From contig CAYQOM010000002.1 in assembly GCA_964419145.1 (NCBI GenBank), positions 726,511 to 790,510 on the forward strand: a stretch of DNA of 64,000 bases, given 5' to 3'. The first letter of the stretch is position 1; every line of letters starts with the position of its first letter. A model generated the notes under the pieces. It was not told where the DNA came from and searched no databases. It was given only the letters and a program-made list of their open reading frames with translations. Below are positions 43,936 to 62,191 of the stretch, piece by piece. The translations under genes were made by a program, and so were the position numbers. This DNA comes from an uncultured Roseivirgaceae bacterium. GTDB taxonomy: Bacteria > Bacteroidota > Bacteroidia > Cytophagales > Cyclobacteriaceae.

Positions 43936-44646
43936 TCACCCACTCACAAACTTCTCCCTGAACTGCAGGTTGAACATGCCATACAACAGGCAAAGCACGG
44001 TGAGTATCATAAGATAAAGCCTGTTCTTGTAAATAACCGTCAGCCAGATAAAGTCACTCATGCCCCGTGGTTCTGAGAAGGGGTTGAGAAAAACGTTGTA
44101 GGCGCTGTATTCCAGCAGCTCAAAAAAAATGAAAAATATGAACGACACGATCACCATCACGATAGCAGTCCCGTTGCCATTCTTGATCAAGGTAGATAGC
44201 ATAAAAGCCAGTGAGGATAGAAATGTGATGGGGAAGAGCACCTGACCGATCATGGGCAGAATGCTAAAGCGGTACAGCGTCAGGTCTGCCAGAACGCCCA
44301 GGATTACTAAAATGACAGCCGCGATTCCAATCGTCAAGAAAAACCGCACGAGCCATACTTTGTATCGGTAATTCGGAATACCAAAAATGGTTTCCAGCAT
44401 TTTGGAGTCATCGTCATTTTGAATACCATAAGCCATGGGGTAGAAGATGAGCAGCAATCCCGGGAAAACCAGGAAGCCGTATATCAGAGCTTCATTAAAG
44501 TCTGAATCACCTTCGAGGATTGTAATCAGGATGATGAATCCAAAGAATAAAAATGCTGCCACCACAAAGTAAACAAACTTGTTACCAAAAATTACTTTGA
44601 CGTTATAGGTTATCAACTTATATAACAGCAGGAGATAGCTCTTCAT
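43936..44646 (-). CDS. ABC-2-type transporter permease (6 TM), last gene of the supercluster
   Basis: 236 aa with six hydrophobic helices. Its start overlaps the stop of the RND::ABC fusion gene by 4 nt (ATGA). The family is inferred from topology and coupling to the NBD, not from a diagnostic motif. Confidence 0.6.
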   Translation of the reverse strand: MKSYLLLLYKLITYNVKVIFGNKFVYFVVAAFLFFGFIILITILEGDSDFNEALIYGFLVFPGLLLIFYPMAYGIQNDDDSKMLETIFGIPNYRYKVWLVRFFLTIGIAAVILVILGVLADLTLYRFSILPMIGQVLFPITFLSSLAFMLSTLIKNGNGTAIVMVIVSFIFFIFFELLEYSAYNVFLNPFSEPRGMSDFIWLTVIYKNRLYLMILTVLCLLYGMFNLQFREKFVSG

Positions 44647-47600: not shown

Positions 47601-49352
47601 GATCTTCCTGATCCGCGCATCGCTCGATTTCAATGTGCTGCCTTGCGGCATGGTGACAAACATGTTCATCTCGGTAGATTCTACTTCAGAAGAACCCGCT
47701 ATACTGACCAAAAGACTAAGGCCGATTGAAACAAAAAACAAAACCAACCCAGCCATCACCGTAAACATGGGTCTGCGGAAGCAAGACTTCAGCAAAACCA
47801 TGTACATCTGGATAAGTCGCTGACGGATCGAGGCGTTCCGGATCAAAGGCGCTTTCTGTTGATCTTCTTTGCTTATGGCCGAGTCGGTCAACATGGGGAT
47901 GAGCACCAGGGCGACAACAAGTGAAACCAATAATGTGGCGATGATGGACACACCGATATGGGTGCCGATAAGCGTAACAAGAAAATTGGACGAGTAAATA
48001 AAAGGCAGAAACACAATTACGGTTGTGAGCGTACCCGCAATTACGGACCGCATGACCTCTTGTGTTCCCCGCACAACGGCTTCTTCGCGGTTCACTTTGT
48101 TCACCACATGACGATAAATGTTTTCGATGACCACCACACTGTTGTCTACCAACATGCCTATGGCCAGGGCCATTCCGATCAGCGTAAGGCTATTGATGGA
48201 GATGTCATATGCATAGAAGAAATTGAATGCAGCATAAACGGAGATCGGTATCGAGAGCGCTATGCTCAGGATGAATTTGATCCTGCGGAGAAATATCCAA
48301 AGAACAAATATGGCCAGCAGCCCACCCGTAATGGCCAGGTCTTTAATCGCATCAATATTGCGCGACATCATCTCGGCAGTATTATTTTGCACTACGATCT
48401 GTACATCCATGGGCTCCAGATCTTTGTTGATGACGTCAATAGCGTCAAGCGTTCTTTCCGATAGGGCAATCAGGTTAGCTTGCGGGTCTTTCGATATCCG
48501 GATCGAAACAGCATCTTTTCCATTAACCCGGCTCAGTGTAGTTTGCTCTTTTACTCCGAAGAATACATCGGCCACATCACTCAGCAGTAGCGGACCTTGC
48601 TCGGATACCACCAGGTTTTGAATGTTCTTAATGTCTTGTAATTCGGCTGTTACATGAACAAAAACTTTTTGTCCTTCCATGTGCACCTGCCCGGCAAAAG
48701 CACTCTTGTTCGCGTTCCGCGAGAGCACATTGCTGATCGTATTGGGTGTGATGCCGTTTGCCTCGCATATCGCATCATGCATGATGATCTCAACCGTCTT
48801 CTGCCGGCCGCCAAAAACTTCTACGCCACCCACACCGTCCACATCGTTTAATCGGTCAACTATGTATTGGTCAGCCATATTCCTGACGCGGTCAACTCCA
48901 CCGCTGCCCAGCACCTGAACATCCATAAATCCGTTGGTGAATTCTTCTGTATCGATCTTGATAATGTTCACCAGGAACTCAGGCGTAAGGCTCGACTTGA
49001 TCGCGCCAACCTTTTGCTCCAGTTTGAGGTAAGCGTATTTGATGTTAACGCCTTGCTGAAACGAAATGAAAATCATTCCCTGTTGGCTGTTGGCATTCGC
49101 GGTGATTTCAGCGACACCTTCAAGCGTACTGATGGCACTCTCCAGCGGCACGATAGCCTGACGTTCCATATACTTGGGGTCGACTTCCGTGGCTGATTGC
49201 ACCTGAACGATCAACACTGGCAATTCAACATTAGGGAACAGCTCAACGGCAAGCTTGGTATAGGAGATATAGCCCATGAAGGTCATACCGATGAACAACA
49301 TCGATACAAGCACTTTCCTCCGGATGATTGTCTTTAGCAAACTGTTACCCAT
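44643..49352 (-). CDS. RND efflux permease (AcrB-like, 12 TM) fused through extra TM helices to a complete ABC transporter ATP-binding domain
   Basis: A 1569-aa uninterrupted ORF.
- aa 1-~1032 are RND: the N-terminus is …IRRKVLVSMLFIGMTFMGYISYTKLAVELFPNVELP…, the TM4 motif is AIGMLVDNSVVVIENI and the TM10 motif is GVVVNNGIILIDY.
- aa ~1033-1106 are two extra TM helices.
- aa 1107-1122 read MHIKIQNLTKVYGRDK, the NBD strand 1.
- aa 1123-1291 are four more TM helices.
- aa 1292-1569 are the NBD core, with Walker A GPNGAGKT (45399-45422), Q-loop GYLPQ, signature FSGGMKQR, Walker B ILVVDEPTAGLD and H-loop FSTHI. Confidence 0.85.
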   Translation of the reverse strand: MGNSLLKTIIRRKVLVSMLFIGMTFMGYISYTKLAVELFPNVELPVLIVQVQSATEVDPKYMERQAIVPLESAISTLEGVAEITANANSQQGMIFISFQQGVNIKYAYLKLEQKVGAIKSSLTPEFLVNIIKIDTEEFTNGFMDVQVLGSGGVDRVRNMADQYIVDRLNDVDGVGGVEVFGGRQKTVEIIMHDAICEANGITPNTISNVLSRNANKSAFAGQVHMEGQKVFVHVTAELQDIKNIQNLVVSEQGPLLLSDVADVFFGVKEQTTLSRVNGKDAVSIRISKDPQANLIALSERTLDAIDVINKDLEPMDVQIVVQNNTAEMMSRNIDAIKDLAITGGLLAIFVLWIFLRRIKFILSIALSIPISVYAAFNFFYAYDISINSLTLIGMALAIGMLVDNSVVVIENIYRHVVNKVNREEAVVRGTQEVMRSVIAGTLTTVIVFLPFIYSSNFLVTLIGTHIGVSIIATLLVSLVVALVLIPMLTDSAISKEDQQKAPLIRNASIRQRLIQMYMVLLKSCFRRPMFTVMAGLVLFFVSIGLSLLVSIAGSSEVESTEMNMFVTMPQGSTLKSSDARIRKIEEKVMGIPVVKELISQVSETDAVLTVKLVDGFNDLDTISVGEVREQLTGISKDFDDVTISLDRPPVQNGGGDGGGVGSSAQNDFERMLGIGTPTERIVIKGQDFELMQSISTDINKMVGGLQSIKQHSMNLSPERPEAHLAFDQKRMSENQITLQNVAVALNDFQPSFESGSNFISGGEDYEITIRTQNQVVNTAKEMRDLREMPVSSTTGATHSFSEIGNALYSSGESTITRSNQEKRIQITYTFIDEVLNSESLLEASRIEIDQIVAGVNIPSGIVVEAIHDEGLFDEFYFLIFSAIIIIFMILAAVFESLYLPVVIMFSIPLAAIGAFLGLTLTGNSLLSANTLIGFLILLGVVVNNGIILIDYSRILRREGYSKYRALMMSGISRVRPIMITSLTTITAMLPLALGEAEYVVSVGQPFAVTVMGGLAFATILTLFYIPTMSAGLESVLHWFRNLKASIKVIQIALMIAAGVFISLRMEGLLLQMIAFIGAIILIPGSTHFIMTSLRQANAKMVAPGEAMHIKIQNLTKVYGRDKRWIREWKGNKNLFETRGEEPVTWRKVLQDLIWQSALIAFLVYFIYFHLDKAFWQLVFMILFHVLALSIFHTIKQLIPYRKRLMRISYTLLYWGFPIVSSVYLYSDVQIKAFGIILILLWFLGLYFVRVSERFKEKPVDVNAITGRFKKIRRLYYTLLLAIPFIKPKKSEFKALKGASLTIEQGMFGLLGPNGAGKTTLMRILCGILDQSYGKIWINGHDTTLRREELQGLIGYLPQAFGTYENMTPYEFLDYQAILRKISNHKEREARVQYVLRAVHMDEHQHKKIGSFSGGMKQRIGIAQILLHLPKILVVDEPTAGLDPLERIRFRNLLVELSRERIVVFSTHIIEDIASSCNKLAVLISGNIEYIGSPTTMAELAHEKVWEFHLTPEQFEVEKENYLIVHHMREGDRIRVKCLSDEIPRADAVSVRANLEDAYLWLMKSKTKKI

Positions 49353-52300
49353 GTGATACCGCTAACTTTTGTTTTTTCTTGCCACGGATCCGGCTGACAA
49401 TATTTTCTATGCTCTCGTAGTAGCAGGGGATGATCACGAGGGTCAAAAGTGTAGACGTAACCATGCCACCGATTACAGCAATAGCGATGGGTGCACGCAG
49501 TGCTGCGCTCTCTCCGAATCCCAACGTCAAGGGCAGCAGACCCAGAATGGTTGTCATGGTTGTCATCATGATCGGTCTGAGTCTGCGTTCTGCCGCGTCA
49601 AGAATGGCCTCGCGCAACGGCATGCCATTTTCCTTGTTCTGATTGATGCAATCCACAATCATAATGGAGTTGTTCACTGCAATGCCGCCCAACAAAATGA
49701 TGCCTATGAATCCCATCATGTTCAGCGGCATCCCCAGCACAAAGAAGGCGAGTATGGCACCTACTACTGCAAAGGGTATGGCCAGCAAAATGGTGAATGG
49801 ATGCAACAGCGATTCGAATTGAGAGGCAAGCACCATGTAAACCAATATGATGGATAGGATGAGTGCGAATGTTAAGTTCTGAACAGACTCCTGGCGTCTT
49901 ACTTCCTGGCCAGCTACTTTGATCTTGTATTGCGGGGGCACCGATAGTTTCGATAGCGAACTTTCAATTGATTTGACAACGCGATCATAGGGCTCGTCTT
50001 GATTCACACGGGCTCCGATCGTCACCGTTCGGGTTTGATCTTTTCTGTAAATGGAGTTGCTGGCATATTGAACATTTACCTGGGCGATCTCTGTTAAAGG
50101 AAATTCACGTTGGCCACTTTTGATCTTTATGTTTTGCAATCCTGCCAAAGAAACGCCAGGCACTTTTATTTTGATATCTTGTATTTCCCCACCGCGCTCA
50201 ATGGTTCCGGCTTGTTTGCCTTCCAGTTGGTCTTTAATCTGGGTAATGATTTCATCGATCGATAAATTGAAGATTCCGGCCCTGTATTTATCGATGTCAA
50301 CTTGAATCTGCGGCACGCCTTCCTCCAGGTTCGACACGGGATCAAACACGAGTTTGTTGGAAGTCATCGCGAGCATCACCGAATCGGAGAGGGGCTTTAG
50401 CTTTTCGAAATCTGCACCACTTACTTCAATTACCAGCGGCATTTGCTCGTCACCCATCACAGCGTAGAGTGCACTTTCATCATTGGAGAATGTAGCTTCC
50501 AGGCCAGGGATGGATTCAAAGTATGCTGAGAGTTTGGCCGTGACCGGGGCAATATCCAGTTCAATGTCTTCTTTGAATATCAGCTTGAGGTTAGCCTTGT
50601 TCTCATTGTATACGTTTTCATTCTTGATTCCCGATTGGCTTTGCTGAGGCCCGATGTGCGAATATATTTTGTCGATCTGTCCTTCAAACAATTGTTGAAG
50701 TTGCCCTTCGATCTGGCCAACCGTAGAAGAAGTTCGGGAAAGGGGAGTGCCGTTCGTCAACGTAATGTCCACAGAAATGGCACGTGTATCCGACTGGGGC
50801 ATGTATTCACTACCGATAATGGGAAGCAACAAAGCCGTACCCGCGATCATGACCAAGGATACCGTGATCCACGCTGTCTTGTGACCCAGCATTTTTTCGA
50901 GCAGTGACCGATACCATGGAAACCGTATATGTTTTTCATCAGCGAAAACTTTCTTCTCCTTGGCAAACACCTTGTCCTTTCTGAAAAATTGACTGAACAG
51001 CATCGGTATAACCAGGATGGCCACAAAGAGTGATGCGAACTGCGAGAACGCAACCGTCCACGCCTGATCTTTGAAGAGCTCACCGGAAGGGCCTTGCAGA
51101 TATACGATTGGCAAGAAAACAACAATACAGGTAAGCGTAGAAGCGGTGATCGCACCACTGACTTCACTTGTGCCTTCAATGGCAGCATCCATCACGCTCA
51201 ATCCTTCCTCTCGCTTTCGGAATATGTTCTCCACCACAACGATAGCGATGTCCACAAGCATACCTGCACTCAACGCCAATCCACCGAGTGTCATAACGTT
51301 CAGCGTGAGTCCATTGAAGTACATCAAATTGAATGTGGCAATGATGGAGATTGGGATCACCACACTGATGATGAGTGTAGAGCCAATTCTTCGCAGGAAA
51401 AGAAACAAGACAAGCACGGCAAAAAACACACCGAACAAACCGGATTCTTTCACCTCATCAATGGCGCCCTGGATAAACCTTCCCTGGTTTTGGATGATCA
51501 CAAACTCGTAACCGGGAACGGAAGTTTTTAACTTCTCCAGTGATGCCATCAGTTCATTGACCGCGTTAACGGTATTGTAATTGGTCTCTTTATAAATGGA
51601 CATTCCAATGCTTCGCTGCTGATTCACCCGAACAATACTGGTTGGCTCCTTATCTAAAGTCTTGATGGTGGCCACCTCCCGAAGTAAAACCGGAACCTGA
51701 TCGGATAAAGCAGGGGTGTTGTTGGTTGTAGTCGTAGTGGTTGTTGAAGGGAGTGCAGGTGAAGTGGTTGTTGCATTTTGACGACTGGTGTAGCCCACTA
51801 CTAACTCTTGCAAGTCTTCGGGCTTTGAAACAATGCCCAGGCCTTTGATCACATACTTTCTGCCCAACTCTTCAATAAACCCACCGGACACGCTTCGGTT
51901 ATAGTTTTGAATTTTAGTAACAAGGTCATTTACGGTCAGACCGTGAGCGGCCAGCAGGGCAGGATCGGTCTCCACCACCACTTCTTTCTCTAGCTCGCCT
52001 GACAAACGCACCTCAGCAATTCCCGGCAACTTGACCAACTCGTTCCTGAAATTATTCTCAGCCACACGTCTTAATGCATCGGTGTCATTAGACGCTGGAT
52101 TATATATCCCCAATATCATGACCGGAGCTGCATTCGGATCGAATTGCGAAATCACAAACTCCTCGATCTCATCGTTCAATGAAAATGCCGACAGTGATTT
52201 TTGAAGATCAAGGAATGCCTCGTCCATGTCCTTGCTCCAATCGTACTGTACGGTAACGCGGCCATAACCCGTTTGGCTCACCGAGCTTACTTCAACAGCA

Positions 52301-52530
52301 CCACTTTGCCGGATGGCAATGGATTCTATATTTTCAATAAACTGCTTCTCAACTTCCGAAGGTGGTTTGATACCCGCCTTGAGTTCAACGAATAACGTGG
52401 GATTCTTCATTTCCGGAACCAACTCAATGCCGAGTTTGTCGAATGAGATGAAACCCAATAGAATGACGGCCAAAACAAGCATCAGGATTGATACCGGGTA
52501 AGTGACCGCCAATGAGACTATCTTTTTCAC
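49345..52530 (-). CDS. RND efflux permease (AcrB/HAE-type), first of a tandem pair
   Basis: 1061 aa. The N-terminus is MKKIVSLAVTYPVSILMLVLAVILLGFISFDKLGIELVPE. The TM4 motif is SAGMLVDIAIVVVENI and the TM10 motif is GGIAVNNSIMIVDC. The two-fold repeat architecture is typical of the family. Its stop overlaps the RND::ABC start by 8 nt. Confidence 0.9.
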   Translation of the reverse strand: MKKIVSLAVTYPVSILMLVLAVILLGFISFDKLGIELVPEMKNPTLFVELKAGIKPPSEVEKQFIENIESIAIRQSGAVEVSSVSQTGYGRVTVQYDWSKDMDEAFLDLQKSLSAFSLNDEIEEFVISQFDPNAAPVMILGIYNPASNDTDALRRVAENNFRNELVKLPGIAEVRLSGELEKEVVVETDPALLAAHGLTVNDLVTKIQNYNRSVSGGFIEELGRKYVIKGLGIVSKPEDLQELVVGYTSRQNATTTSPALPSTTTTTTTNNTPALSDQVPVLLREVATIKTLDKEPTSIVRVNQQRSIGMSIYKETNYNTVNAVNELMASLEKLKTSVPGYEFVIIQNQGRFIQGAIDEVKESGLFGVFFAVLVLFLFLRRIGSTLIISVVIPISIIATFNLMYFNGLTLNVMTLGGLALSAGMLVDIAIVVVENIFRKREEGLSVMDAAIEGTSEVSGAITASTLTCIVVFLPIVYLQGPSGELFKDQAWTVAFSQFASLFVAILVIPMLFSQFFRKDKVFAKEKKVFADEKHIRFPWYRSLLEKMLGHKTAWITVSLVMIAGTALLLPIIGSEYMPQSDTRAISVDITLTNGTPLSRTSSTVGQIEGQLQQLFEGQIDKIYSHIGPQQSQSGIKNENVYNENKANLKLIFKEDIELDIAPVTAKLSAYFESIPGLEATFSNDESALYAVMGDEQMPLVIEVSGADFEKLKPLSDSVMLAMTSNKLVFDPVSNLEEGVPQIQVDIDKYRAGIFNLSIDEIITQIKDQLEGKQAGTIERGGEIQDIKIKVPGVSLAGLQNIKIKSGQREFPLTEIAQVNVQYASNSIYRKDQTRTVTIGARVNQDEPYDRVVKSIESSLSKLSVPPQYKIKVAGQEVRRQESVQNLTFALILSIILVYMVLASQFESLLHPFTILLAIPFAVVGAILAFFVLGMPLNMMGFIGIILLGGIAVNNSIMIVDCINQNKENGMPLREAILDAAERRLRPIMMTTMTTILGLLPLTLGFGESAALRAPIAIAVIGGMVTSTLLTLVIIPCYYESIENIVSRIRGKKKQKLAVSHG

Positions 52531-52548: not shown

Positions 52549-53607
52549 TTATTGAATAACGCTGACTTTCGATTTGTTTCTCAGGGTTTCAAAACCTGCG
52601 ACCACGAGCCGGTCATTGACCTTCAGCCCGTTGGTAACTTCGATTACATCGGCATTCTCCAGTCCGGTAGTTATTTTCTTTTCAGTTGCTATACCATTTT
52701 CTACGGTAAACACCACCTTACCATCTTGACGGGAGATAATGGTTTGTTTTGGGATAACGATGGTATTGTCACGTTTCTCAGATAGAATGAATGCTTTGAT
52801 AAACATGCCAGGTCGCAACGATCGTTTTGCATTGTTTATCTCCAGCACACTTTGAAACGTTCGGGTATCCGCATTAATGGCTGGGGAGATCTGGCTGATC
52901 TTCCCATAAATGGTATCGTTCGCTACATTATAGTTAGCAATTTGAACGGTCTGGTCCATCGTTACTTCAGGCAAATGTTTCTCAGGGAGCTTTACATCCA
53001 TCAACAGTTTATCGTATTGCATGATTTTTAAAAGCATCTGCCCTTGATCGATTTTTACGCCATTCGTGTGATACGGTAATTCTACAATCACTCCATCAAA
53101 GGGAGCGCGTATGGTCATCTTAGCCTGTTGTATCTCCGCATTCTCAAACGCATACTTGGCATTGACGTATGATATCGCAGCATTTTTTAATTCGGTTTGT
53201 GTAACACCGCCTTTGTCATACAAGGACTGTTGCTTCTTTAGATTATTGTCGGCAAGCTCGAGGTTGAGTCTCTTACCTTCCGTCTGAAGGTTGTTTTCAA
53301 ATTCCTTGTCTTCCAGTCGGATCAACACTTGTCCGGCTTTAACTGCATCGCCCAACGCGAAAGGTTTTCCGGTTGATGGATTACGTTGCAGTTGGTAAAC
53401 ACCACCAATCTCGGATTTCATGGCACCTTCCTTAAAGGCATACACGGTGCCTGTAGTTTCAATGAATCGGGAGATGCTCTGTGGCTTGATGCTTATCACC
53501 GACACGGGGATCTTGATCTCCGTTTTAATGTTTGCGTCTTCCGAGTTGCAGCTTGCCAGTGCAATCAATACCAGCAGGGGAAGGATTTCTTTAATATGCT
53601 TTTTCAT
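52549..53607 (-). CDS. Efflux RND periplasmic adaptor (membrane fusion protein), lipoprotein
   Basis: 352 aa with a lipobox (LIALASC). It has a lipoyl/hairpin pattern (…AGQVLIRLEDKEFENNL…coiled coil…TIRAPFDGVIVEL…) and a C-terminal beta-barrel. Confidence 0.85.
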   Translation of the reverse strand: MKKHIKEILPLLVLIALASCNSEDANIKTEIKIPVSVISIKPQSISRFIETTGTVYAFKEGAMKSEIGGVYQLQRNPSTGKPFALGDAVKAGQVLIRLEDKEFENNLQTEGKRLNLELADNNLKKQQSLYDKGGVTQTELKNAAISYVNAKYAFENAEIQQAKMTIRAPFDGVIVELPYHTNGVKIDQGQMLLKIMQYDKLLMDVKLPEKHLPEVTMDQTVQIANYNVANDTIYGKISQISPAINADTRTFQSVLEINNAKRSLRPGMFIKAFILSEKRDNTIVIPKQTIISRQDGKVVFTVENGIATEKKITTGLENADVIEVTNGLKVNDRLVVAGFETLRNKSKVSVIQ

Positions 53608-53636: not shown

Positions 53637-55148
53637 TTAATTTTTAGGGATAAGCACAGGCTCTTGTGTTTCAAAATCGTAAAGGGATTGAATCTTTAGG
53701 TTGAGCAATTCAATTTTATAGTTAATCAACGCATCGGCCAGTGCGCTCTTCTTTTCCGAAAGCTGGCTTTGAAATCTATTGAGATCGATACTGGTCAGGT
53801 CGCCATTCTTGTATCGCTCAAGATTCAAGTCGTAGGTCAACGTGGCGTTCTTTACATTTTGTTGAGCGATGGTTATTTGATTTTCCAGATTTTGCAGGTT
53901 CCGGTAAATCTTCCTTATACTGATGATGATGTTATTTTTTTCTACATCCAGGTCAACTTTCCTTATCTCGAGTGAGGTGTTGGTTGCGTCCATTCGTGCC
54001 CTGTTCTCACCCCAGTCGAAGATGGGTATGCTAAAGGAAATGGCTACTCGCGGATTAACGGCAGGCGACTCATACACCATAGGCGCGCGCTCGTTATCAC
54101 CAAAAACAGCTAATGACAAGCTCACCGAACCTTTAAATTCATTCAACGCCTTCGTTCGAATTAATTCAAACTGCGATCGCTCAATGTCTATCGAACGCTG
54201 TCGCAATTCCATTCTGTTGTCCAGTCCAAACTGAAGTGCTTGGTTTAAGTCCACTTTCCGGGTAATAAAATCAATGTTCACCTCAACGGCTACTTGTTCA
54301 GTCAAGTCCATGCCGAGTAAAAGTTTGAAGTCATCGGCAGCATTATCGAGCAATACCTGATTGGTTTCCATGGTCGACTTGGATGTGGCCAGGTTGAGTT
54401 CGGCCTGATAAAGTTCTTCTTGCGCCAGCAGGTCAGCGTCTACTTTGTTCTTCGTGATTTCGTAACTGATTCTCTGATTCTCATATTCATCTTTCGAAAT
54501 CTGGAGCGTGTTCTGTCGCTGGTAAAAAGTATAAAACGACTGCGTAACGCTTTGTTCCAAGCTTAATAATTGCAATGAATTGCTGATGGTGGCATTCTCC
54601 AGGTTCAACTCCAGTTCCTTTAACTGAATCTTTGTTCGGTTGTATGTAAAGATGGGCTGGTCTAATTGAAGATATAAGTTGTTGCTGTACGTCTTGGTTC
54701 GGACATCCTGAAACTCGGAATAGTTATCTCTGTACCCAAACCGGTTGATTAACGATATGCGGCCATCGGTTGCCAAAATGGGCTGGCTCACTGAAAAATT
54801 GGCGAATGAATTATAGTCTCTGTTTGTGTTCCATAGCGAAAACAAATCGTTGAACATCCGGCTCTGGTTGAAATCGAACGGGGTAACGTCTAACGCGAAC
54901 TTTGACTTTAAAGCCGCGCGTTGAGCATCCAGGCTGCGCTGACTACCATACAGATTCAACATTGATTTTTTTATGTTTAGACTGCTCTGCTGTGCAATCT
55001 TAATCGCTTCGTTCAGCGTGAGTTTACGCTGCGCGTTCGCGCTCGTCCAGCTAAGTACGATGCATGCCAGCAAGAGAAATCCAGTTGTTAAACGCACGAA
55101 TCGTCTATTGTTCCATTTCATTGTTTTCCTTAAACCCATGTGATTCAA
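53637..55148 (-). CDS. TolC-family outer membrane efflux protein
   Basis: 503 aa with a signal peptide (…VLSWTSANAQ). The start LTLNEAIKIAQQSSLNIKKS is typical of the family. The internal duplication of long helical segments is consistent with an OEP/TolC fold. Confidence 0.8.
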   Translation of the reverse strand: MNHMGLRKTMKWNNRRFVRLTTGFLLLACIVLSWTSANAQRKLTLNEAIKIAQQSSLNIKKSMLNLYGSQRSLDAQRAALKSKFALDVTPFDFNQSRMFNDLFSLWNTNRDYNSFANFSVSQPILATDGRISLINRFGYRDNYSEFQDVRTKTYSNNLYLQLDQPIFTYNRTKIQLKELELNLENATISNSLQLLSLEQSVTQSFYTFYQRQNTLQISKDEYENQRISYEITKNKVDADLLAQEELYQAELNLATSKSTMETNQVLLDNAADDFKLLLGMDLTEQVAVEVNIDFITRKVDLNQALQFGLDNRMELRQRSIDIERSQFELIRTKALNEFKGSVSLSLAVFGDNERAPMVYESPAVNPRVAISFSIPIFDWGENRARMDATNTSLEIRKVDLDVEKNNIIISIRKIYRNLQNLENQITIAQQNVKNATLTYDLNLERYKNGDLTSIDLNRFQSQLSEKKSALADALINYKIELLNLKIQSLYDFETQEPVLIPKN

Positions 55149-55198: not shown

Positions 55199-58100
55199 TC
55201 ATTGCTTAACCCACTTCACCGCATCCGCATACACAGTCCAGAGCTCGCACTCATCCGTCAACGAAACACTGCCACCGGTTTTATTGAAATAATACGAACC
55301 CAGATAATTCCAGCCCGGCTCTGCATTTGTGATATTGTACTTGAGGTTGTCCGTTCCATCGGCATTTTGAATGATATAGTTGTAATCGAATTGCTTGCCT
55401 TCAGCACTGCGACCCGTCCAGGTGTTTTGGTTTTTGCCGCGCATGTATACATACAAATCGTAGAAGCCAGCCTCTTTCAATTCAGCAGTCCACGTGGCGA
55501 CCTTTTCACCATTTCCCGACCTTGTGAAATGTGCCGAGCGGATAATACTACCAAAAAAATCAGATCCCGTGGTGGCCAGCCAACTCGAGTATGAGCTATC
55601 CCACTCGCCATAGTACTTCTGCTCGGTGGCTTTTCGGCTATCCATGTAGGCTTTCAACACCGTGGGCTTGATAGGACTGAAGCTGCTGAAACCGGAATCC
55701 TCATTGTCAACGATTACTTCATATTGAATCGGGACTTCTTCTTTGTCAACAACCCGTTCACCATCAAATAGAATTCCGCCCGCGCGGCTAGACAAAGTTC
55801 CCATAGATATGTTGATTACAGAGGGAATATTTCTTGAAATGATAGTATTGATAGTGAGTGAATTCGGTTTTTCATCGAGCAAAAAGCCAAGAAGCTTCGT
55901 CTCGCCTTGCTTGATTACCGAAAGTTTCCCCGGAGCTTCTTCTTCAACGTCCTCATTCACCTTGTTGTAATACTCATCATCATCCGTGTTTTGCTTGCTG
56001 TTGAACTTTACTTCCAGTACACCATCACTATCACCCGAATTTTTCACTTTCACCAGCACTTGATACCGTTTTCGGTCAACGTCTGTTACCTCATATTTCT
56101 GAATATCCAGAATTTCGAAAGCTGGTTGAGAAGTTTCTGAATACACTTCGCGGATAACCGGGTCAATATCAATTTGAAATCGCGAAAGCATCGCTTTCCG
56201 GAAATCCTGATAATCGCTTAGTTGATGTTGATGGTTGTTTACCCAATCGTATAAGAAAGTTTTGAATTGGGTTTCACCCATGGTGTTGCCCAGGTAGGAG
56301 AAGAGGTACTGGCTTTTCAGCGTTACCGCTTTGTTGATTTTGCTGAACTCTGCCTCCGTCAGGATTTTCGTCATTGAAGTAGTGTGCATCAGGTTGTTGC
56401 ATTCCTCCGTGAACGAGATTCCGTTCATGGACCGGGTATAGTCGTTCTGAACTTGTTTGTCATTTCTAAGGTAAGTGGCCATACTCCGGTTTAGCAGCGG
56501 CCAATCCCGACTCACTACACCTGAATTGAAATCATAATAAATAGGAAAGAGAGAATAGTCAGCATTGTCGAAATCCTGACCTTCATTCACCCATCTTTCT
56601 CCAATTTGTTTGGTGAAAACTTTCCGTACCAAATCGTTAAAGACATTGGCTTGTTTCTGTTTGTCTGTGAGCACTTGATTTGTTTTGGCAGCTTGCGTAT
56701 TCATGTCCAGGAGTTGCCGCCTGAAATCGAACTGCCGTATTTCACCACCTTCTTCCGGCCAGAAAACTGTTTCGGGTTGGATAAATGCCATGTGACTCTC
56801 GTATATTTTTCTGTAAGCCGTAAGCATCATGGGCACTTCAACAAACTGCATCCTTTTGAAAGGATACTTGAGTTGTTGCGCGTCTTCATATTCAGTGGCT
56901 ACATCGGTAATCAGGTAGCTGAGTGTATCGCCCAGTTGATTGAGTTGCTTCACGAAGAAATCATTCTTTGGATAATGAAATACTGAATAGGTGATGCTAT
57001 CCACTACGATCTCTTTTTTTGCATAAGCACCAATAACAAGTGAGATGTGCGGCAGCGGATATTCAGGCTTGAAGTGGTAGGTATCTCCCACGAGCACAAC
57101 TTCTCCTTGTGAAATAGGCGTTTGGCCGGCAGGAGCTTTAACCATCAATTCAAACGTGATGAAGGATTGTCTCTCTTTAGCTGCCGATTCTTTATTATAA
57201 CCAACTTCTGTGTCTGGATACCAAAGCACATCTTTGGTTAGCAATACATAATCATCCTCCAGAAAACCATACTTCTTGGGTAAGGAAAACATAAAGTGGT
57301 CATTCGCAGTTTCATAGCGTTTTTGATCAACTTCAAGATGCGCGACTGATTCCAATACCGAACCATGGTATTGAATCTGAACTTTTGTTTCAGCATCCGG
57401 TTCAAGGGCAACACCCTGGCTTATGGAAATAATTTGTAAGTCTCTTGTAAACTCGGTGGGTTTATCGTTCAGGAGTACGGCATCAACAGTAAGACCGGGA
57501 TTCAATGTGAAATAGATCGTATCAAGCCGCTCACTCGTATTATTTCTTACCCGCATGTTCGAATGGCTAACAATCTCATTGCCGACCCACTCCAATTCGA
57601 TGGTATGTGAGTTTATCTCAGCGTTTGGCTTATTTATCCACCGGCCGTTAACTGCTATCATCTCTTGCCGCATATCCATGGAGCTTTGCCGCATGTTCCA
57701 GAGATTGAACATGATAAAAGAGGATAGTAGAAGCAGCGCGGCACCCACTACAGCCGTAGCCCGATGTGAGGTCTTGTGGCCGGCCAATCGGTCCAGTAGA
57801 AATGCCGTGATGAAAAGAAACGCGATGCCTGTAATCAAATAGAATGTGCGTTGCCACAGCGCAAATTCAATATCGATGAAGCCCGTCATCTCGGAAGCCA
57901 GCATGGAAAGCCGAAACGAAGTGAAATCCAGGATGTTTGAAAACTTATCGAAATAATAAATCAACTGAACGCCAGCTAAACCAATAAGCAACACGATGGA
58001 GATCGGTTGATTTCGGATAACGGTTACCAACAGAAATGCTATACCTGTTGTAAATACAATACTGGGAACGCTCGTGAGCAACGGATAAATAAGGAAAGCC

Positions 58101-58531
58101 GTTGGGTTGATGGTAGCAAGCGGATTGGTCAGCCCCACAATCAATGGTATGCAAAGTAAAACGAGATTTAAAAGGAAGAAGAGTTTAAAGAGCGCCAATG
58201 CCTTCCCCAGAACGTAATCCAGGTTGGATATCGGTCGAACAAAAAAGACTTCATTGGTATCCAGTTTTTTATCTTTCTTCACTAACCCGGTTGCTAAAAA
58301 GATAACAGCAGCGGCCTGGGGTATGCTGATCATCAACAAGCTGGAATAGGGAAGCACCCAGCCGTTGGCCAACTCGCTCCACCGTGGCGTACCGATAGCA
58401 GAAAACACCGCTAAGTTGAAAATCGTGAGGAAGAAAATACCGGCCAAGGCAACAATCCTGAAAAACCAATTTCGCCACAACACCCTGGACTCGAATGCAG
58501 CAATCGTCAATATGTTTTTAACCGACATCAT
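55199..58531 (-). CDS. ABC-2-type permease (7 TM) fused to a large (~820 aa) periplasmic domain, possibly M1-aminopeptidase-like but lacking HExxH
   Basis: 1110 aa. The first ~290 aa contain seven hydrophobic helices, which should place the remainder outside the cytoplasm. The following region (…NSHTIELEWVGNEIVSHSNMRVRN…IYFTLNPGLTVDAV…) resembles the N-terminal beta domain of M1 peptidases. I found no HExxH anywhere in the translation. The C-terminal ~130 aa form a beta-rich module (…GFYDLYVYMRG…PGWNYLGSYYF…). The start overlaps the ATPase stop by 4 nt. Confidence 0.6.
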   Translation of the reverse strand: MMSVKNILTIAAFESRVLWRNWFFRIVALAGIFFLTIFNLAVFSAIGTPRWSELANGWVLPYSSLLMISIPQAAAVIFLATGLVKKDKKLDTNEVFFVRPISNLDYVLGKALALFKLFFLLNLVLLCIPLIVGLTNPLATINPTAFLIYPLLTSVPSIVFTTGIAFLLVTVIRNQPISIVLLIGLAGVQLIYYFDKFSNILDFTSFRLSMLASEMTGFIDIEFALWQRTFYLITGIAFLFITAFLLDRLAGHKTSHRATAVVGAALLLLSSFIMFNLWNMRQSSMDMRQEMIAVNGRWINKPNAEINSHTIELEWVGNEIVSHSNMRVRNNTSERLDTIYFTLNPGLTVDAVLLNDKPTEFTRDLQIISISQGVALEPDAETKVQIQYHGSVLESVAHLEVDQKRYETANDHFMFSLPKKYGFLEDDYVLLTKDVLWYPDTEVGYNKESAAKERQSFITFELMVKAPAGQTPISQGEVVLVGDTYHFKPEYPLPHISLVIGAYAKKEIVVDSITYSVFHYPKNDFFVKQLNQLGDTLSYLITDVATEYEDAQQLKYPFKRMQFVEVPMMLTAYRKIYESHMAFIQPETVFWPEEGGEIRQFDFRRQLLDMNTQAAKTNQVLTDKQKQANVFNDLVRKVFTKQIGERWVNEGQDFDNADYSLFPIYYDFNSGVVSRDWPLLNRSMATYLRNDKQVQNDYTRSMNGISFTEECNNLMHTTSMTKILTEAEFSKINKAVTLKSQYLFSYLGNTMGETQFKTFLYDWVNNHQHQLSDYQDFRKAMLSRFQIDIDPVIREVYSETSQPAFEILDIQKYEVTDVDRKRYQVLVKVKNSGDSDGVLEVKFNSKQNTDDDEYYNKVNEDVEEEAPGKLSVIKQGETKLLGFLLDEKPNSLTINTIISRNIPSVINISMGTLSSRAGGILFDGERVVDKEEVPIQYEVIVDNEDSGFSSFSPIKPTVLKAYMDSRKATEQKYYGEWDSSYSSWLATTGSDFFGSIIRSAHFTRSGNGEKVATWTAELKEAGFYDLYVYMRGKNQNTWTGRSAEGKQFDYNYIIQNADGTDNLKYNITNAEPGWNYLGSYYFNKTGGSVSLTDECELWTVYADAVKWVKQ

Positions 58532-59418
58532 ACCAGCGACACGCCAAATTCATTCTCCATGAAATATACATATGCGTGTTCCAGGTTTGGATTGGCTGCT
58601 TGCGCAACAGGATGGGGCCTTTCATGGGCAATCACCTGCACTTCCCAATTTCCTTCAACCGGAATGGTTGACACCACCGGATACTTTGCTTTGAGTGTAT
58701 CAAACTCTTCATCGTTCAATAATACCTGCCACACATGGCCCCGCACCCGGTCAATCATGCCTTCGGGCGAGCCTTTGAAAGCCACCTCACCTTTGTTAAG
58801 CATCGCCATGTTATGGCATGTACTGGAGATGTCGCCTACAATGTGTGTGGAGAGTATAATCGTAACGTCTTTCTGACTGAGATCGGAAAGGATGTTACGA
58901 AAGCGAATGCGCTCCTCCGGATCAAGACCGGTGGTGGGCTCATCAATCACCAACAAGCGTGGTTCACCAATGAGTGCCTGCGCAATCCCAAGCCTTCGTT
59001 TCATTCCACCAGAAAGTTTGTTGGCCATTCGATCACGCACATCCAGTAAACCCACCTGATCCAATAATTTATCAACTTTGGCGATTCGCTCTTTTCTTTT
59101 CAATGATGTGGCGAGTTGCGCGGCATAATCCAAAAACTCCCACGTTTTTAGTTTGGAAAAAAAGGTGAAGTCCTGAGGCAGATAACCCACCAGTCGCCTG
59201 ATTTCATGACGGTTTGTATTGATGTCCATGCCATCCATCAGCACTGTTCCCGAAGTTGCTTTCTGGGCCGTAACCAGTATCCGCATAAAGCTTGACTTCC
59301 CCGCTCCGTTTGGCCCGAGCAGCCCAAACATACCGCTCCCGATTTGCAGGTTGATATTCTTAATGGCAGCATGGCCATTGGGGTAAATTTTAGAAAGCCC
59401 GGATATCTCAATATTCAT
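58528..59418 (-). CDS. ABC transporter ATP-binding protein (ABC-2/DrrA-like) with a C-terminal ~75-aa extension
   Basis: 296 aa with Walker A GPNGAGKS, Q-loop GYLPQ, signature LSGGMKRR, Walker B LLVIDEPTTGLD and H-loop LSTHI. It is clearly paralogous to the NBD fused to RND-2. Confidence 0.92.
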   Translation of the reverse strand: MNIEISGLSKIYPNGHAAIKNINLQIGSGMFGLLGPNGAGKSSFMRILVTAQKATSGTVLMDGMDINTNRHEIRRLVGYLPQDFTFFSKLKTWEFLDYAAQLATSLKRKERIAKVDKLLDQVGLLDVRDRMANKLSGGMKRRLGIAQALIGEPRLLVIDEPTTGLDPEERIRFRNILSDLSQKDVTIILSTHIVGDISSTCHNMAMLNKGEVAFKGSPEGMIDRVRGHVWQVLLNDEEFDTLKAKYPVVSTIPVEGNWEVQVIAHERPHPVAQAANPNLEHAYVYFMENEFGVSLV

Positions 59419-60234: not shown

Positions 60235-60581
60235 GATTCAAGATGTTTTTTTAACTCTTCGGCACTGATGCCGAGCAGGGCTGCCTGCCTGAGAAATTCG
60301 GGTAAGACTTTATTGAAGAATTCCTGCTTCTTGTCTTTGAGAATAATGGTTTTCGCTTCGGGATTTACGAAGTACCCGATGCCTCGTTGATTTTCAATAA
60401 TGTTCATTGCCTGAAGTTCACTATAGGTACGCATAACGGTATTCGGATTCACACCCATTTCAGCAGCCAGTTCCCTCACAGAAGGTATCTTTTCACCAGC
60501 AGGAAACTCGCCACTCACCACTTTCTCGGTAATGGTATCTGCTATCTGCAGAAAAATGCTTTTGCCTTCTTGAAAATGCAT
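60231..60581 (-). CDS. GntR-family transcriptional regulator, YtrA subfamily
   Basis: 116 aa. The winged HTH is …GEKIPSVRELAAEMGVNPNTVMRTYSELQAMNIIENQRGIGYFV…. The short helical C-terminus is typical of YtrA-type regulators. Confidence 0.85.
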   Translation of the reverse strand: MHFQEGKSIFLQIADTITEKVVSGEFPAGEKIPSVRELAAEMGVNPNTVMRTYSELQAMNIIENQRGIGYFVNPEAKTIILKDKKQEFFNKVLPEFLRQAALLGISAEELKKHLES

Positions 60582-60582
60582 A

Positions 60583-61371
60583 CTACACCTCCCGTTCTTT
60601 TAACTTCCTGTACGCCACAAAGAGCATTACTGCTGTGCCTGCAAAAAGCGCGATGGTCACTGCTTTCAAAGCACTATCCTCTTGCAATGGAATTAACCAC
60701 ATGTGTTCAGGCGGATTGTATTGTCCCACCCCCAGGTGCTCAATAACAATGTAACTATACCCAACAAAAAACATGACGACCATCGCCACAGCAAAAAGTG
60801 ATTTAACCAGGGGTTGTTTGGTGAACATGGCGGCACCCGTGAACGCTAACGAAAGCGCAAACAATACCGCACCTGTTACGAGAGAATAAATCAGGAACTG
60901 GTAATCGGGCGGCACATCATCAATCAGTACCAGGTTCTGTATGCCAATGGGATTGAATGTTTCCTCCGTAAATATGGAAAAGAAGTATCCCTGTACGTGG
61001 AAGGTTATCCAAAACAGCAAGGGTAATGATATCAGGATGATTCCGATCCGACTGACAAACTCAAAGGTGAATTTCTCCAAGACCGATGCAGGTATCATCA
61101 GGTAATGAATGGTACTCTCTTTCGACCGGAATGCCGGAAAGGCGTGACCGACATAGAGAATGCCAAACACCGTGACGAACCCAATCAGGAAACCCTGGAA
61201 GTTTTCTAAGCCATGAGGTCGAAGATCAATACCAATCTGCGTAAGAGACAATACAATAAAAATGACTCCCACATAAGCGCCTGTTGAAAGCAATAGCAAC
61301 TGTGCGTTGTGAATAAAATGCTGCTTGAAGAGCAACAAAAAACGTTTCCGGCTGAATATATTATTTGACAT
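60583..61371 (-). CDS. Polytopic membrane protein (putative permease partner of the YtrA-module ATPase)
   Basis: 262 aa with about six hydrophobic helices. It overlaps the upstream ATPase gene by 11 nt. There is no diagnostic motif. Confidence 0.55.
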   Translation of the reverse strand: MSNNIFSRKRFLLLFKQHFIHNAQLLLLSTGAYVGVIFIVLSLTQIGIDLRPHGLENFQGFLIGFVTVFGILYVGHAFPAFRSKESTIHYLMIPASVLEKFTFEFVSRIGIILISLPLLFWITFHVQGYFFSIFTEETFNPIGIQNLVLIDDVPPDYQFLIYSLVTGAVLFALSLAFTGAAMFTKQPLVKSLFAVAMVVMFFVGYSYIVIEHLGVGQYNPPEHMWLIPLQEDSALKAVTIALFAGTAVMLFVAYRKLKEREV

Positions 61372-62191
61372 ATTCTCTCATTTTTTCGGTTCCATTGGAA
61401 ATCGCATTGAATAACAACTCAATGTCAACAGAAGAACTTCCGTCTGTTTGCGGTGTGATCACTTTGTAGCCACCGGGCACCATCTCACGGTACAAAATAT
61501 GCTCACCTTCCGGTGATGCCGTGGTGGCAAAATGCAGTTTTGAAGCGATCTCATAGATGTTCTTTTGCATGATGAATTTCCCTTTTTCAAGCATGAGTAC
61601 CCGGTCGATCAGGTTTTCAACATCACGAACCTGATGCGTGGATATGATCACCAGTTGATCCGCATCCAACGAGCCCGCCATCACCCTTCGGAAAATTGAC
61701 TTGGATGGAATATCCAATCCGTTGGTAGGTTCATCTAAAACCAGTAGCCGGCATTTCGTGGAAAGTGCGAACGAGATCAGGAATTTCTTTTTCTGACCAT
61801 AGGAAAGTTCGTTGAGGCGTTTGTTTTCGGGCAGCTCAAAGTCGGTGATTAACCGATTCAGAAGCGCCAGATCAAAGCGTGGATAGAATCCGGAATTCGC
61901 TTTTACATATTGCTTGATGGTAACACTGGGATGATGAAATTCTTCGGGCAGGAAATACATATCCTGCAGCAGTGATGGCTCGCGTTCAGCCGGTTGCTGC
62001 TCCATAATGCGCACTGTTCCCTCCGTAGGGCGCAGCAATCCAATCATCAGTTTTAGCAAAGTTGTTTTGCCGGCTCCATTCTTACCCAACAGCCCCACAA
62101 TGCTACCGGAATGCAGTTCACAGTTAAGCTCCTGGAAAAGCGGCTGAATTTTTTTGGAGTACCTAAAACCTAAGTCGTTGATAATAACCAT
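61361..62191 (-). CDS. ABC transporter ATP-binding protein (YtrB-like, degenerate signature)
   Basis: 276 aa with Walker A GKNGAGKT, signature LSYGQKKK, Walker B LLVLDEPTNGLD and H-loop ISTHQ. Confidence 0.9.
   Translation of the reverse strand: MVIINDLGFRYSKKIQPLFQELNCELHSGSIVGLLGKNGAGKTTLLKLMIGLLRPTEGTVRIMEQQPAEREPSLLQDMYFLPEEFHHPSVTIKQYVKANSGFYPRFDLALLNRLITDFELPENKRLNELSYGQKKKFLISFALSTKCRLLVLDEPTNGLDIPSKSIFRRVMAGSLDADQLVIISTHQVRDVENLIDRVLMLEKGKFIMQKNIYEIASKLHFATTASPEGEHILYREMVPGGYKVITPQTDGSSSVDIELLFNAISNGTEKMREYVK

What the first reader, a model, noticed from the sequence alone, without database searches (positions are those of the whole stretch)
58528..59418. The standalone ATPase and the RND-fused ATPase are close paralogues with a shared extra C-terminal domain, suggesting a heterodimeric NBD pair
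The two NBDs share long identical strings: GMFGLLGPNGAGK, GYLPQ.F, EFLDY.A.L, SGGMK.R.GIAQ, DEPT.GLDP.ERIRFRN.L and STHI..DI.S.C. They also share a ~75-aa extension beyond the ABC core (…HVWQVLLNDEEFDTLKAKY…NLEHAYVYFM versus …KVWEFHLTPEQFEVEKENY…NLEDAYLWLM). Each is translationally coupled by an ATGA overlap to a different permease: the 1110-aa protein with 7 TM helices and a periplasmic domain, and the 236-aa protein with 6 TM helices. The third ATPase in the region (61361-62191, LSYGQ signature) is clearly a different subfamily. The simplest inference is a heterodimeric ABC transporter whose two halves are encoded at opposite ends of the operon, one half being part of the RND polypeptide.
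Basis: partly seen in the sequence, partly recalled or inferred. Interest (0 to 1): 0.6.

Follow-up and report, generated by a model that had tools for sequence, protein, structure and literature searches.

The report
Two ABC motors in RND-ABC cassette
A free ABC ATPase and an ABC ATPase fused to an RND efflux pump are old paralogues that are always inherited together in one conserved export gene cluster; they probably act in one machine, perhaps as a mixed pair, but that pairing is not shown.

Summary
NBD-A (58528-59418, 296 aa) and the C-terminal NBD-B of the 1569-aa RND fusion are 41% identical over 273 residues, C-terminal extension included. The third ATPase is 29% identical, core only. 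Both ATGA overlaps are real.

"Close paralogues" is overstated. Each NBD is as similar to dozens of other free NBD clusters (38-46%) as to the other. They form separate, well-supported clades on an unresolved backbone. The shared extension is the ACT-like R/basket domain common to the whole subfamily (TM_1403, NosF, ABCA), so it is no special link.

The proposed refutation is not met. Eleven loci show the canonical gene order wherever the contig reaches, and three rearranged loci also carry a free NBD, a fused NBD, a large permease and a small permease. In a 401-genome phylum sample, fusion, permA and permB occur in the same four genomes only.

Two points favour one mixed assembly. In the rearranged loci the free NBD sits beside the small permease and the large permease beside the fusion, so NBD-permease adjacency is swapped. 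A three-chain fold put NBD-B on NBD-A, but weakly (ipSAE 0.40 against 0.00) and about as chance would.

Against it: both NBDs have fully canonical ATP sites, and the best-studied analogue, PmtABCD, forms two separate homodimers.

My odds: heterodimer about 0.45, two homodimers about 0.35.

The parts
58528..59418 (-). NBD-A, a free ABC ATPase of 296 aa: core residues 1-225 (58744-59418), then an ACT-like C-terminal domain plus terminal helix, residues 226-296 (58531-58743)
   Evidence: Pfam ABC_tran E 1.2e-30. AlphaFold model has pLDDT 96, with the extension folding as strand-helix-strand-strand-helix. Full-length structural matches are to TM_1403 (4yer), NosF and ABCA4/7.
58528..58531 (-). ATGA overlap: the NBD-A stop codon overlaps the permA start codon
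   Evidence: The minus-strand sequence reads ...CTGGTATGATGTCG....
55199..58531 (-). permA, 1110 aa: one ABC-2-type membrane domain (7 hydrophobic segments in residues 1-280) and an extracytoplasmic region of about 820 aa with weak M1-peptidase-like and Golvesin_C matches and no HExxH
   Evidence: Its membrane-domain profile matches both TMDs of two-TMD/M1 permeases (E 2.7e-10 and 9.7e-13).
53637..55148 (-). TolC-like outer membrane factor
   Evidence: Pfam OEP E 2.6e-32.
52549..53607 (-). Periplasmic adaptor (MFP)
   Evidence: Pfam HlyD_D23 E 4.4e-24.
49345..52530 (-). RND1, 1061 aa
   Evidence: Pfam ACR_tran E 5.5e-206.
44643..49352 (-). RND2-linker-NBD-B fusion, 1569 aa. The RND part is residues 1-1030. 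Two hydrophobic segments follow, then NBD strand beta-1 (residues 1107-1119, nt 45996-46034), four more hydrophobic segments, and the rest of NBD-B with its C-terminal domain (residues 1283-1569, nt 44646-45506).
   Evidence: Pfam ACR_tran plus ABC_tran, hydropathy and many full-length homologues.
44643..44646 (-). ATGA overlap: the fusion stop codon overlaps the permB start codon
   Evidence: The minus-strand sequence reads ...AAAATATGAAGAGC....
43936..44646 (-). permB, a 236-aa ABC-2-type permease with 6 hydrophobic segments
   Evidence: Orthologues lie beside the fusion in every canonical cassette seen where that end is present; in Marivirga a DUF559 gene sits between them.
61361..62191 (-). 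Third ABC ATPase. It belongs to a different subfamily and to the neighbouring GntR/YtrA-type module, not to the cassette.
   Evidence: 29% identical to NBD-A over the core only. Best NCBIfam hit is PmtA-like. A GntR regulator lies at 60231-60581.

Best explanation
NBD-A and NBD-B are two old, fully catalytic paralogues of the ABC-2 (type V exporter) ATPase subfamily that carries an ACT-like R/basket domain.

Shown: they are fixed parts of one co-inherited cassette. Its parts are a free NBD, a large permease with a periplasmic domain, an adaptor, RND1, an RND2-NBD fusion and a small permease, with or without an outer membrane factor.

Inferred, and my best guess: the four ABC parts build a single heteromeric ABC-2 transporter. 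NBD-A and NBD-B would form the ATP-sandwich dimer, held together by their C-terminal domains, beneath a permA/permB membrane pair. This unit would be tethered through the RND2 polypeptide to an RND1/RND2 trimer. ATP-driven extraction of a substrate from the inner membrane or cytoplasm would then be coupled directly to RND/adaptor/outer-membrane export. One fused NBD per pump would fit an RND1(2):RND2(1) trimer, but that stoichiometry is speculation.
For: 1. Co-occurrence. Eleven loci show the canonical order wherever the contig reaches: G000, G001, G009, G339, G182, G365, L009, L010, L011, L019 and L028. More partial ones (L031, L034, L036, L038) agree.
2. In one 401-genome phylum sample the fusion, permA and permB (E < 1e-80) were found in the same four genomes and nowhere else. 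The same holds for a 41-genome relatives sample.
3. Rearranged cassettes keep all four ABC parts but swap adjacency. L020 and G438 have MFP|NBD|small permease|RND1|~900-aa permease|fusion|OMP. L021 has 908 aa|NBD|small permease (4-nt overlap)|MFP|RND1|fusion.
4. The small permeases there are permB-like (hhalign 80% and 94%). The L020 902-aa protein is permA-like (BLAST E 8e-7). The L020 fused NBD lies inside the B clade (99/99). The same NBD lineage therefore sits next to different permease types in different lineages, which fits one complex more easily than two fixed modules.
5. permA has a single TMD, homologous to the TMDs of relatives that carry two different TMDs in one chain.
6. A fold of two NBD-A plus one NBD-B with ATP/Mg placed NBD-B on an NBD-A through Walker A, D-loop and H-loop, and through C-terminal-domain strand 248-253 (A) against 240-245 (B). 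This recurred in 3 of 3 runs, with ipSAE 0.40 against 0.00 for the best control; the tool's verdict was 'weak support'.
Against: 1. Both NBDs keep every catalytic motif: Walker A, Q-loop, SGGMK, DEPT, D-loop and H-loop are invariant across 70 sequences. There is none of the site degeneracy common in obligate heterodimers.
2. Relatives with only one NBD gene (the two-gene modules, including one in this genome) must use NBD homodimers.
3. In the window each NBD is translationally coupled to its own permease. That is the layout of PmtABCD, where experiments showed two separate homodimeric transporters, PmtAB and PmtCD (PMC7527219).
4. The three-chain fold is uninformative on preference. With two A and one B, two of the three possible pairs contain B, close cousins pass this test anyway, and the A-A score was not reported.
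5. Homology of the L021 908-aa protein to permA is not established.
6. No physical or co-evolution data exist.
Confidence: 0.45

Rival explanations
1. There are two separate homodimeric ABC-2 transporters in one operon: (NBD-A)2(permA)2 and (RND2-NBD-B)2(permB)2. They cooperate functionally with the RND pump but do not mix subunits, as PmtAB and PmtCD do not.
For: NBD|permease pairs with ATGA overlaps. Both NBDs are fully canonical. Single-NBD relatives are necessarily homodimeric. PmtAB and PmtCD were shown to be two distinct homodimeric complexes, and PmtC dimerises through an ACT-fold basket domain of the same kind as this C-terminal extension (PMC7527219).
Against: The NBD-B lineage sits beside the small permease in canonical cassettes but beside the large permease in L020 and G438, where the free NBD is next to the small permease. 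Fixed cognate pairs would therefore have had to swap partners. Neither module was found on its own in 401 plus 41 genomes. Two fused NBDs must also meet, which needs two RND2 protomers per trimer or a bridge between two trimers.
Confidence: 0.35
2. A mixed membrane pair with a single NBD type: permA and permB form the TMD heterodimer, energised by a homodimer of the free NBD-A, as in LptB2FG or CcmA2BC. The fused NBD-B has a different role, such as driving or gating RND2 directly or acting as a regulatory ATPase.
For: In L021 the order is large protein|NBD|small permease, which looks like a self-contained three-gene ABC unit next to MFP|RND1|fusion. In L021 the NBD follows RND TM12 directly, with no membrane linker. 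Both RNDs read D-I or D-N in TM4 and Asn in TM10, where my recollection is that AcrB has D407/D408 and K940, so an alternative energy input is conceivable.
Against: In canonical cassettes permB is translationally coupled to the fusion, not to NBD-A. NBD-B keeps the complete ABC-2 NBD plus dimerising C-terminal domain and is more conserved than NBD-A (65% against 59% at the same divergence). That is typical of an NBD engaged with a TMD and a partner NBD. No RND is known to be driven by an ABC domain.
Confidence: 0.12

Closest known systems
PmtABCD of Staphylococcus aureus (ABC-2/type V exporter operon with two NBD and two TMD genes)
   Same: It has two paralogous NBD genes, each followed by its own 6-TM ABC-2 permease. 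The NBD carries an ACT-fold C-terminal 'basket' domain and a terminal helix that packs back on the NBD; the basket provides about 40% of the dimer interface (PMC7527219).
   Different: Pmt forms two independent homodimeric transporters and has no RND, adaptor or outer membrane partner. Here one NBD is part of an RND polypeptide, one permease carries an ~820-aa periplasmic domain, and NBD-permease adjacency is not conserved across lineages.
ABCA full transporters (ABCA1/ABCA4/ABCA7), and ABCG5/G8 as heterodimeric type V exporters
   Same: ABCA proteins are the best sequence matches in the PDB for NBD-A (ABCA4 E 2e-58). They also match structurally across NBD plus R-domain. ABCA proteins have two non-identical halves, each with a TMD bearing a large extracellular domain, an NBD and an R-domain, and the two R-domains pair with each other.
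   Different: These are eukaryotic single-chain or half-transporter proteins with no link to an RND pump. Here only one TMD has a large external domain and the parts are separate genes.
NosF of NosDFY and TM_1403 (4yer): bacterial ABC-2 ATPases with an R-domain
   Same: They give full-length structural matches to the NBD-A model, including the C-terminal domain (TM-score 0.74-0.79).
   Different: In the solved NosDFY complex the NosF chain is present in two identical copies. I did not check TM_1403's partners. Sequence identity is only 27-32%.
ABC transporter permease/M1 aminopeptidase two-gene modules of Bacteroidota
   Same: The NBD subfamily is the same (39-42% identity, same C-terminal domain). 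The permease TMDs are homologous to permA, and one copy lies in this same genome.
   Different: They have a single NBD gene and a ~1200-aa permease with two TMDs and an intact HExxH motif. They lack RND, adaptor, second NBD and small permease.
MdtABC / MuxABC heteromeric RND pumps
   Same: Two adjacent paralogous RND genes sit with one adaptor, which implies a mixed trimer. MdtB2C stoichiometry (from my own knowledge) is the model for a single RND2 per pump.
   Different: No ABC parts. RND1 and RND2 score equally against the MdtB and MdtC models, so no orthology can be assigned.

Membership tests
ABC ATPase (PF00005) | Walker A, Q-loop, signature, Walker B with catalytic Glu, D-loop and H-loop all present | tested here: met
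   Both NBDs match ABC_tran (E 1.2e-30 and 7.9e-29). G35/K41, Q82, S136/G138, D159/E160, D166 and H192 are invariant in 70 aligned A-type, B-type and free sequences.
ABC-2/type V NBD subfamily with an ACT-like R/basket domain (NosF, TM_1403, ABCA, PmtC type) | A C-terminal domain of about 65 aa with strand-helix-strand-strand topology, followed by a terminal helix after the NBD core | tested here: met
   In the NBD-A model (pLDDT 96) the elements are E229-234, H236-245, E248-254, E257-263 and H279-290. Full-length matches are to 4yer, NosF and ABCA4/7. NBD-B aligns through this region, but its own structure was not modelled.
GldA / DrrA equivalogs (NCBIfam TIGR03522, TIGR01188) | Score above the curated cut-off | tested here: not met
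   NBD-A scores 172 against GldA (cut-off 402.6) and 185 against DrrA (cut-off 312). NBD-B scores 167 and 155. They are related, but not members.
Obligate heterodimeric ABC NBD pair | The two NBD genes always co-occur | tested here: met
   Every locus that reaches both ends holds both NBDs. In 401 genomes the fusion and permA co-occur exactly, in 4 of 4.
Obligate heterodimeric ABC NBD pair | Asymmetric ATP sites, one of them degenerate (common but not obligatory) | tested here: not met
   All catalytic motifs are canonical in both clades.
Obligate heterodimeric ABC NBD pair | Physical A-B interaction preferred over A-A and B-B | tested here: inconclusive
   In the fold of 2 A + 1 B + ATP/Mg, NBD-B takes the head-to-tail position on one NBD-A, with ipSAE 0.40 against 0.00 for the best control ('weak support').
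Pmt-type double homodimer | Each NBD keeps the same cognate permease as its neighbour across lineages | tested here: not met
   Canonical cassettes pair free NBD|large permease and fusion|small permease. L020, G438 and L021 have free NBD|small permease.
Heteromeric RND pump (MdtBC-like) | Two adjacent RND paralogues with one adaptor; 2:1 stoichiometry | not testable with these tools
   The adjacency, with an 8-nt overlap, is seen. Stoichiometry cannot be derived, and the MdtB and MdtC models do not discriminate between the two RNDs.

The most novel reading that the evidence does not exclude
The cassette may encode one asymmetric super-complex. A single ABC-2 heterotetramer (NBD-A/NBD-B over permA/permB) would be built onto the one RND2 protomer of an RND1(2)RND2(1) trimer. 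ATP hydrolysis by a mixed NBD pair would then feed, or even power, an RND/adaptor/outer-membrane conduit whose RND subunits lack the usual Asp-Asp/Lys proton relay. This would be an ATP-coupled RND exporter with defined 2:1:1:1:1 stoichiometry.
Probability: 0.2. Interest if true: 0.85.

Novelty: new variant of a known kind. Interest (0 to 1): 0.55.

Why it matters
RND pumps (driven by proton-motive force) and ABC pumps (driven by ATP) are treated as separate energy classes of tripartite efflux. This cassette ties them together covalently. Whether its two ATPases pair with each other decides the architecture of the whole machine. A mixed pair implies one ABC unit per RND trimer and a 2:1 RND heterotrimer. 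Two homodimers imply two separate ABC transporters docked on, or beside, the pump. The cassette is conserved in several Bacteroidota lineages, including Bacteroidales such as Tannerella- and Parabacteroides-like organisms, and in more distant rearranged forms. Its substrate and mechanism are therefore of general interest for envelope biogenesis or efflux in this phylum. Four full-text literature searches, two of them aimed at RND-ABC fusions, found no paper describing an RND-ABC fusion or its NBD pairing.

Tried and rejected
1. P0123 as a natural 'free NBD-B + permB' intermediate. Rejected: it is an A(1-~165)::B hybrid with its crossover at Walker B/D-loop. The same N-terminal 150 aa is joined to quite different C-termini in other metagenome proteins, so it is probably an assembly chimera. 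I removed it from the tree.

2. permA + permB as a split two-TMD/M1 permease. permA matches both TMDs, TMD2 slightly better. permB matches TMD1 only weakly (E 1.2e-3, probability 19%), so the idea is not supported.

3. Charge complementarity on the C-terminal-domain interface strand (A 'WEVQV' against B 'IRVKC'). It is not conserved: G182 and G365 have 'WKITV'.

4. Sister relationship of the A and B clades. The backbone is a star, and the AU test gives p 0.36 and 0.39, so the question stays unresolved.

5. Assigning RND1 and RND2 to MdtB or MdtC to infer stoichiometry. Both score alike.

6. A census of cassette architectures with the search for related loci. The patterns chosen were generic NBD motifs and the scan saturated. 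Only L034, L035, L036 and L038 were useful.

7. The three-chain competition fold. I realised afterwards that chance alone favours a pair containing B two times in three, so it carries little weight.

8. Homology of the L021 908-aa protein to permA: not significant.
Full report
WHAT IS THERE. The minus strand of the window carries seven tightly packed genes:
- NBD-A, 58528-59418, 296 aa, Pfam ABC_tran.
- permA, 55199-58531, 1110 aa: seven hydrophobic segments in the first 280 residues, then about 820 residues with weak Peptidase_M1 and Golvesin_C matches and no HExxH.
- A TolC-like outer membrane factor, 53637-55148.
- A periplasmic adaptor, 52549-53607.
- RND1, 49345-52530.
- A 1569-aa RND2-NBD-B fusion, 44643-49352, matching ACR_tran plus ABC_tran.
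- permB, 43936-44646, 236 aa, six hydrophobic segments.
Both ATGA overlaps (NBD-A/permA and fusion/permB) are in the sequence.

CHECK OF THE OBSERVATION. NBD-A and the C-terminal domain of the fusion align over 273 residues at 41% identity (E 3e-68), and the alignment runs through the C-terminal extension. The third ATPase at 61361-62191 is 29% identical over the core only. Its best family match is PmtA-like, and it belongs to a neighbouring GntR-type module. One detail needs adding: the first strand of NBD-B (MHIKIQNLTKVYG, residues 1107-1119) is separated from the rest of the domain by about 170 residues containing four hydrophobic segments. Earlier notes of this scan had already followed that up.

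HOW CLOSE ARE THE TWO NBDS? Not especially close.
- An exhaustive search with NBD-A against 50%-identity cluster representatives returns the fusion-type NBDs (40-46% identity) interleaved with dozens of free ~290-aa NBD clusters at 38-46%.
- Split by region, A against B is 45% in the core and 28% in the extension in this genome, and 12-26% in the extension in other cassettes. Either NBD against unrelated free members gives 46-53% and 20-26%.
- In a careful maximum-likelihood tree the fused NBDs form one clade (99/99), and the cassette-type free NBDs form another (core 100/99). The NBDs of two-gene 'NBD + ~1200-aa permease' modules group together too, well supported for a five-member core (100/99). 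The backbone is unresolved.
- Forcing A and B together costs 3 log-likelihood units (AU p 0.39), so a sister relationship is neither supported nor excluded.
- Within every cassette the two NBDs stay at about 41% identity, so there is no sign of gene conversion.

WHAT IS THE SHARED EXTENSION? An AlphaFold model of NBD-A (pLDDT 96) shows a strand-helix-strand-strand unit followed by a terminal helix. Full-length structural matches are TM_1403 (4yer), NosF of NosDFY, and ABCA4/ABCA7 with their R-domains. By sequence, ABCA NBDs are the best hits in the PDB.

The same kind of domain was characterised in PmtC as an ACT-fold 'basket'. There it supplies about 40% of the NBD dimer interface and is essential, and a terminal helix packs back on the NBD (PMC7527219). 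The motif GKVW...NLEDAY runs through the whole subfamily. The extension is therefore a subfamily trait and a likely dimerisation module. It is not a feature that links these two proteins in particular.

IS THE PAIR CONSERVED? Yes, as part of the whole cassette.
- The fusion family is large. A search with its last 530 residues returned thousands of hits, and the best 120 were at least 75% identical, from genera including Chryseotalea, Marivirga, Fulvivirga and Marinoscillum.
- The canonical order NBD-A|permA|(OMP)|MFP|RND1|fusion|permB is seen, as far as each locus reaches, in G000, G001, G009, G339, G182, G365, Marivirga (L009), Marinoscillum (L010), Chryseotalea (L011) and two metagenome or MAG contigs without the OMP gene (L019, L028). 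L009 and L011 cut the start of NBD-A, and in L009 a DUF559 gene separates the fusion from permB.
- Partial canonical loci come from Bacteroidales and other Bacteroidota (L031, L034, L036, L038).
- The cassette is patchy. It occurs in 3 of 25 genomes of the window's genus and 4 of 401 sampled genomes of the phylum.
- In that same 401-genome sample, permA (E < 1e-150) and permB (E < 1e-80) occur in exactly the four genomes that have the fusion.
One locus (L018) is cut 1.2 kb upstream of the adaptor gene and is uninformative.

REARRANGED CASSETTES. Three more distant loci keep the same set of parts in a different order.
- L020 and an independent genome, G438 (46-69% identical proteins), have MFP|free NBD|small permease|RND1|~900-aa permease|fusion|OMP.
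- L021 has 908 aa|free NBD|small permease (4-nt overlap)|MFP|RND1|fusion.
- The small permeases match the permB profile better than the permA-TMD profile (80% against 59%, and 94% against 11%).
- The L020 902-aa protein matches permA (E 8e-7), and the L020 fused NBD lies inside the B clade.
- Homology of the L021 908-aa protein to permA is not significant, although it has six N-terminal hydrophobic segments.
The fused NBD lineage therefore neighbours the small permease in one architecture and the large permease in another. If neighbourhood marked two fixed, self-contained modules, cognate partners would have had to swap. If all four parts form one assembly, gene order is free to vary.

RELATIVES WITH ONE NBD. 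This NBD subfamily also occurs in two-gene modules, including one elsewhere in this genome (G000 C2:258485-259303). Their ~1200-aa permease has 12-13 hydrophobic segments, meaning two TMDs, and an intact HExxH M1 domain. Those systems can only use NBD homodimers, over two different TMDs fused in one chain. The single TMD of permA is homologous to both of those TMDs and slightly closer to the second, which is the one followed by the M1 domain. permB is only marginally similar to the first. A 'split permease' origin is thus suggestive for permA and unproven for permB.

FOLD TEST.
- NBD-B was placed on one NBD-A through Walker A, D-loop and H-loop, and through a strand-to-strand contact of the C-terminal domains (A 248-253 with B 240-245).
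- The contacts were reproducible, with 77-78% shared between runs.
- ipSAE was 0.40 against 0.00 for the best of three controls, and the tool's verdict was 'weak support'.
This shows that an A/B dimer of the usual kind is sterically plausible. It does not show preference. By chance two of the three possible pairs contain B, close cousins of true partners pass this test, and the A-A score was not reported.

ARGUMENTS AGAINST A HETERODIMER. Both NBDs keep every catalytic motif, so there is no degenerate site. The window's layout of two NBD|permease pairs is that of PmtABCD. [quoted passage not shown]

WEIGHING. My prior favours two homodimers because of the Pmt precedent. The strict co-inheritance raises the mixed-assembly reading a little, and the swapped adjacency raises it more. 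The canonical ATP sites lower it somewhat. The fold adds almost nothing. I end at about 0.45 for one heteromeric ABC unit (NBD-A/NBD-B over permA/permB, tethered to the RND trimer through RND2). I give 0.35 to two separate homodimeric transporters, and about 0.12 to a permA/permB pair energised by NBD-A alone with NBD-B serving the RND. The remainder is unassigned.

What is shown: paralogy, subfamily membership, the nature of the C-terminal domain, catalytic competence by motif, and obligatory co-occurrence. What is inferred: who pairs with whom, the stoichiometry and the function.

PITFALL FOUND. P0123, a cluster representative that looked like a free NBD followed by a true permB orthologue, is a hybrid. 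Residues 1-160 are 80-95% identical to Bacteroidales NBD-A, and the remainder is B-like, with the crossover at Walker B/D-loop. The same N-terminal half is joined to quite different C-termini in other metagenome proteins. These are most likely assembly chimeras. I removed P0123 from the final tree.

NOVELTY. Four full-text searches found no paper on RND-ABC fusions or on this NBD pair. Databases call the fusion 'efflux RND transporter permease subunit'. Paired ABC-2 NBDs with ACT-like domains are known, so for this finding I rate it a new variant of a known kind. Earlier notes of this scan had already described the cassette, the fusion and the split NBD on this same window. My results agree with them and add the rearranged architectures, the phylogenetic placement of the two NBDs and the Pmt precedent.

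Noticed in passing
L029 (protein P0123); also proteins P0279, P0280, P0281, P0310: These are hybrid NBDs. The N-terminal ~160 aa is Bacteroidales NBD-A type (80-95% identity) and the rest is NBD-B type, with the crossover at Walker B/D-loop, followed by a genuine permB orthologue. The same N-terminal half is joined to unrelated C-termini in other contigs, so they are probably metagenome assembly chimeras. They distort NBD trees.
   Followed up: yes
L020, L035+L115 (G438), L021: Alternative cassette architectures with the same parts in another order. The L021 fusion has a contiguous NBD with no membrane linker. The L020 fusion has a 45-aa soluble insert at the same beta1/beta2 position where the window's protein has four hydrophobic segments.
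   Followed up: partly
G000 C2:258485-259303 and the adjacent 1205-aa gene (L015:4816-9340): A third member of the same NBD subfamily lies in this genome. It is paired with a ~1200-aa permease that has two TMDs and an intact HEVAH M1-peptidase motif. The same two-gene module is widespread in the order (L012-L017).
   Followed up: partly
window 49345-52530 and 44643-49352: Both RND paralogues read MLVDIAIVVVEN / MLVDNSVVVIEN in TM4 and IAVNNSIMIVD / VVVNNGIILID in TM10. From memory, E. coli AcrB has Asp-Asp and Lys at the corresponding positions. If that is right, the usual proton relay is altered in both.
   Followed up: no
L009:14994-15401 (Marivirga): A DUF559/MTES_1575 endonuclease-like gene is inserted between the fusion and permB, breaking the translational coupling seen elsewhere.
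   Followed up: no
window 59545-62191: Directly upstream of the cassette on the same strand lies a separate module: a PmtA-like ABC ATPase, a 262-aa membrane protein, a GntR-family regulator and a 229-aa protein. It may regulate the cassette.
   Followed up: no
G180:C5:56456-59658 (L032): The permB profile weakly hits (E 5e-6) the 241-aa permease of an NBD|241 aa|514 aa locus that resembles GldA/GldF/GldG. permB may therefore be a distant GldF-like ABC-2 permease.
   Followed up: no
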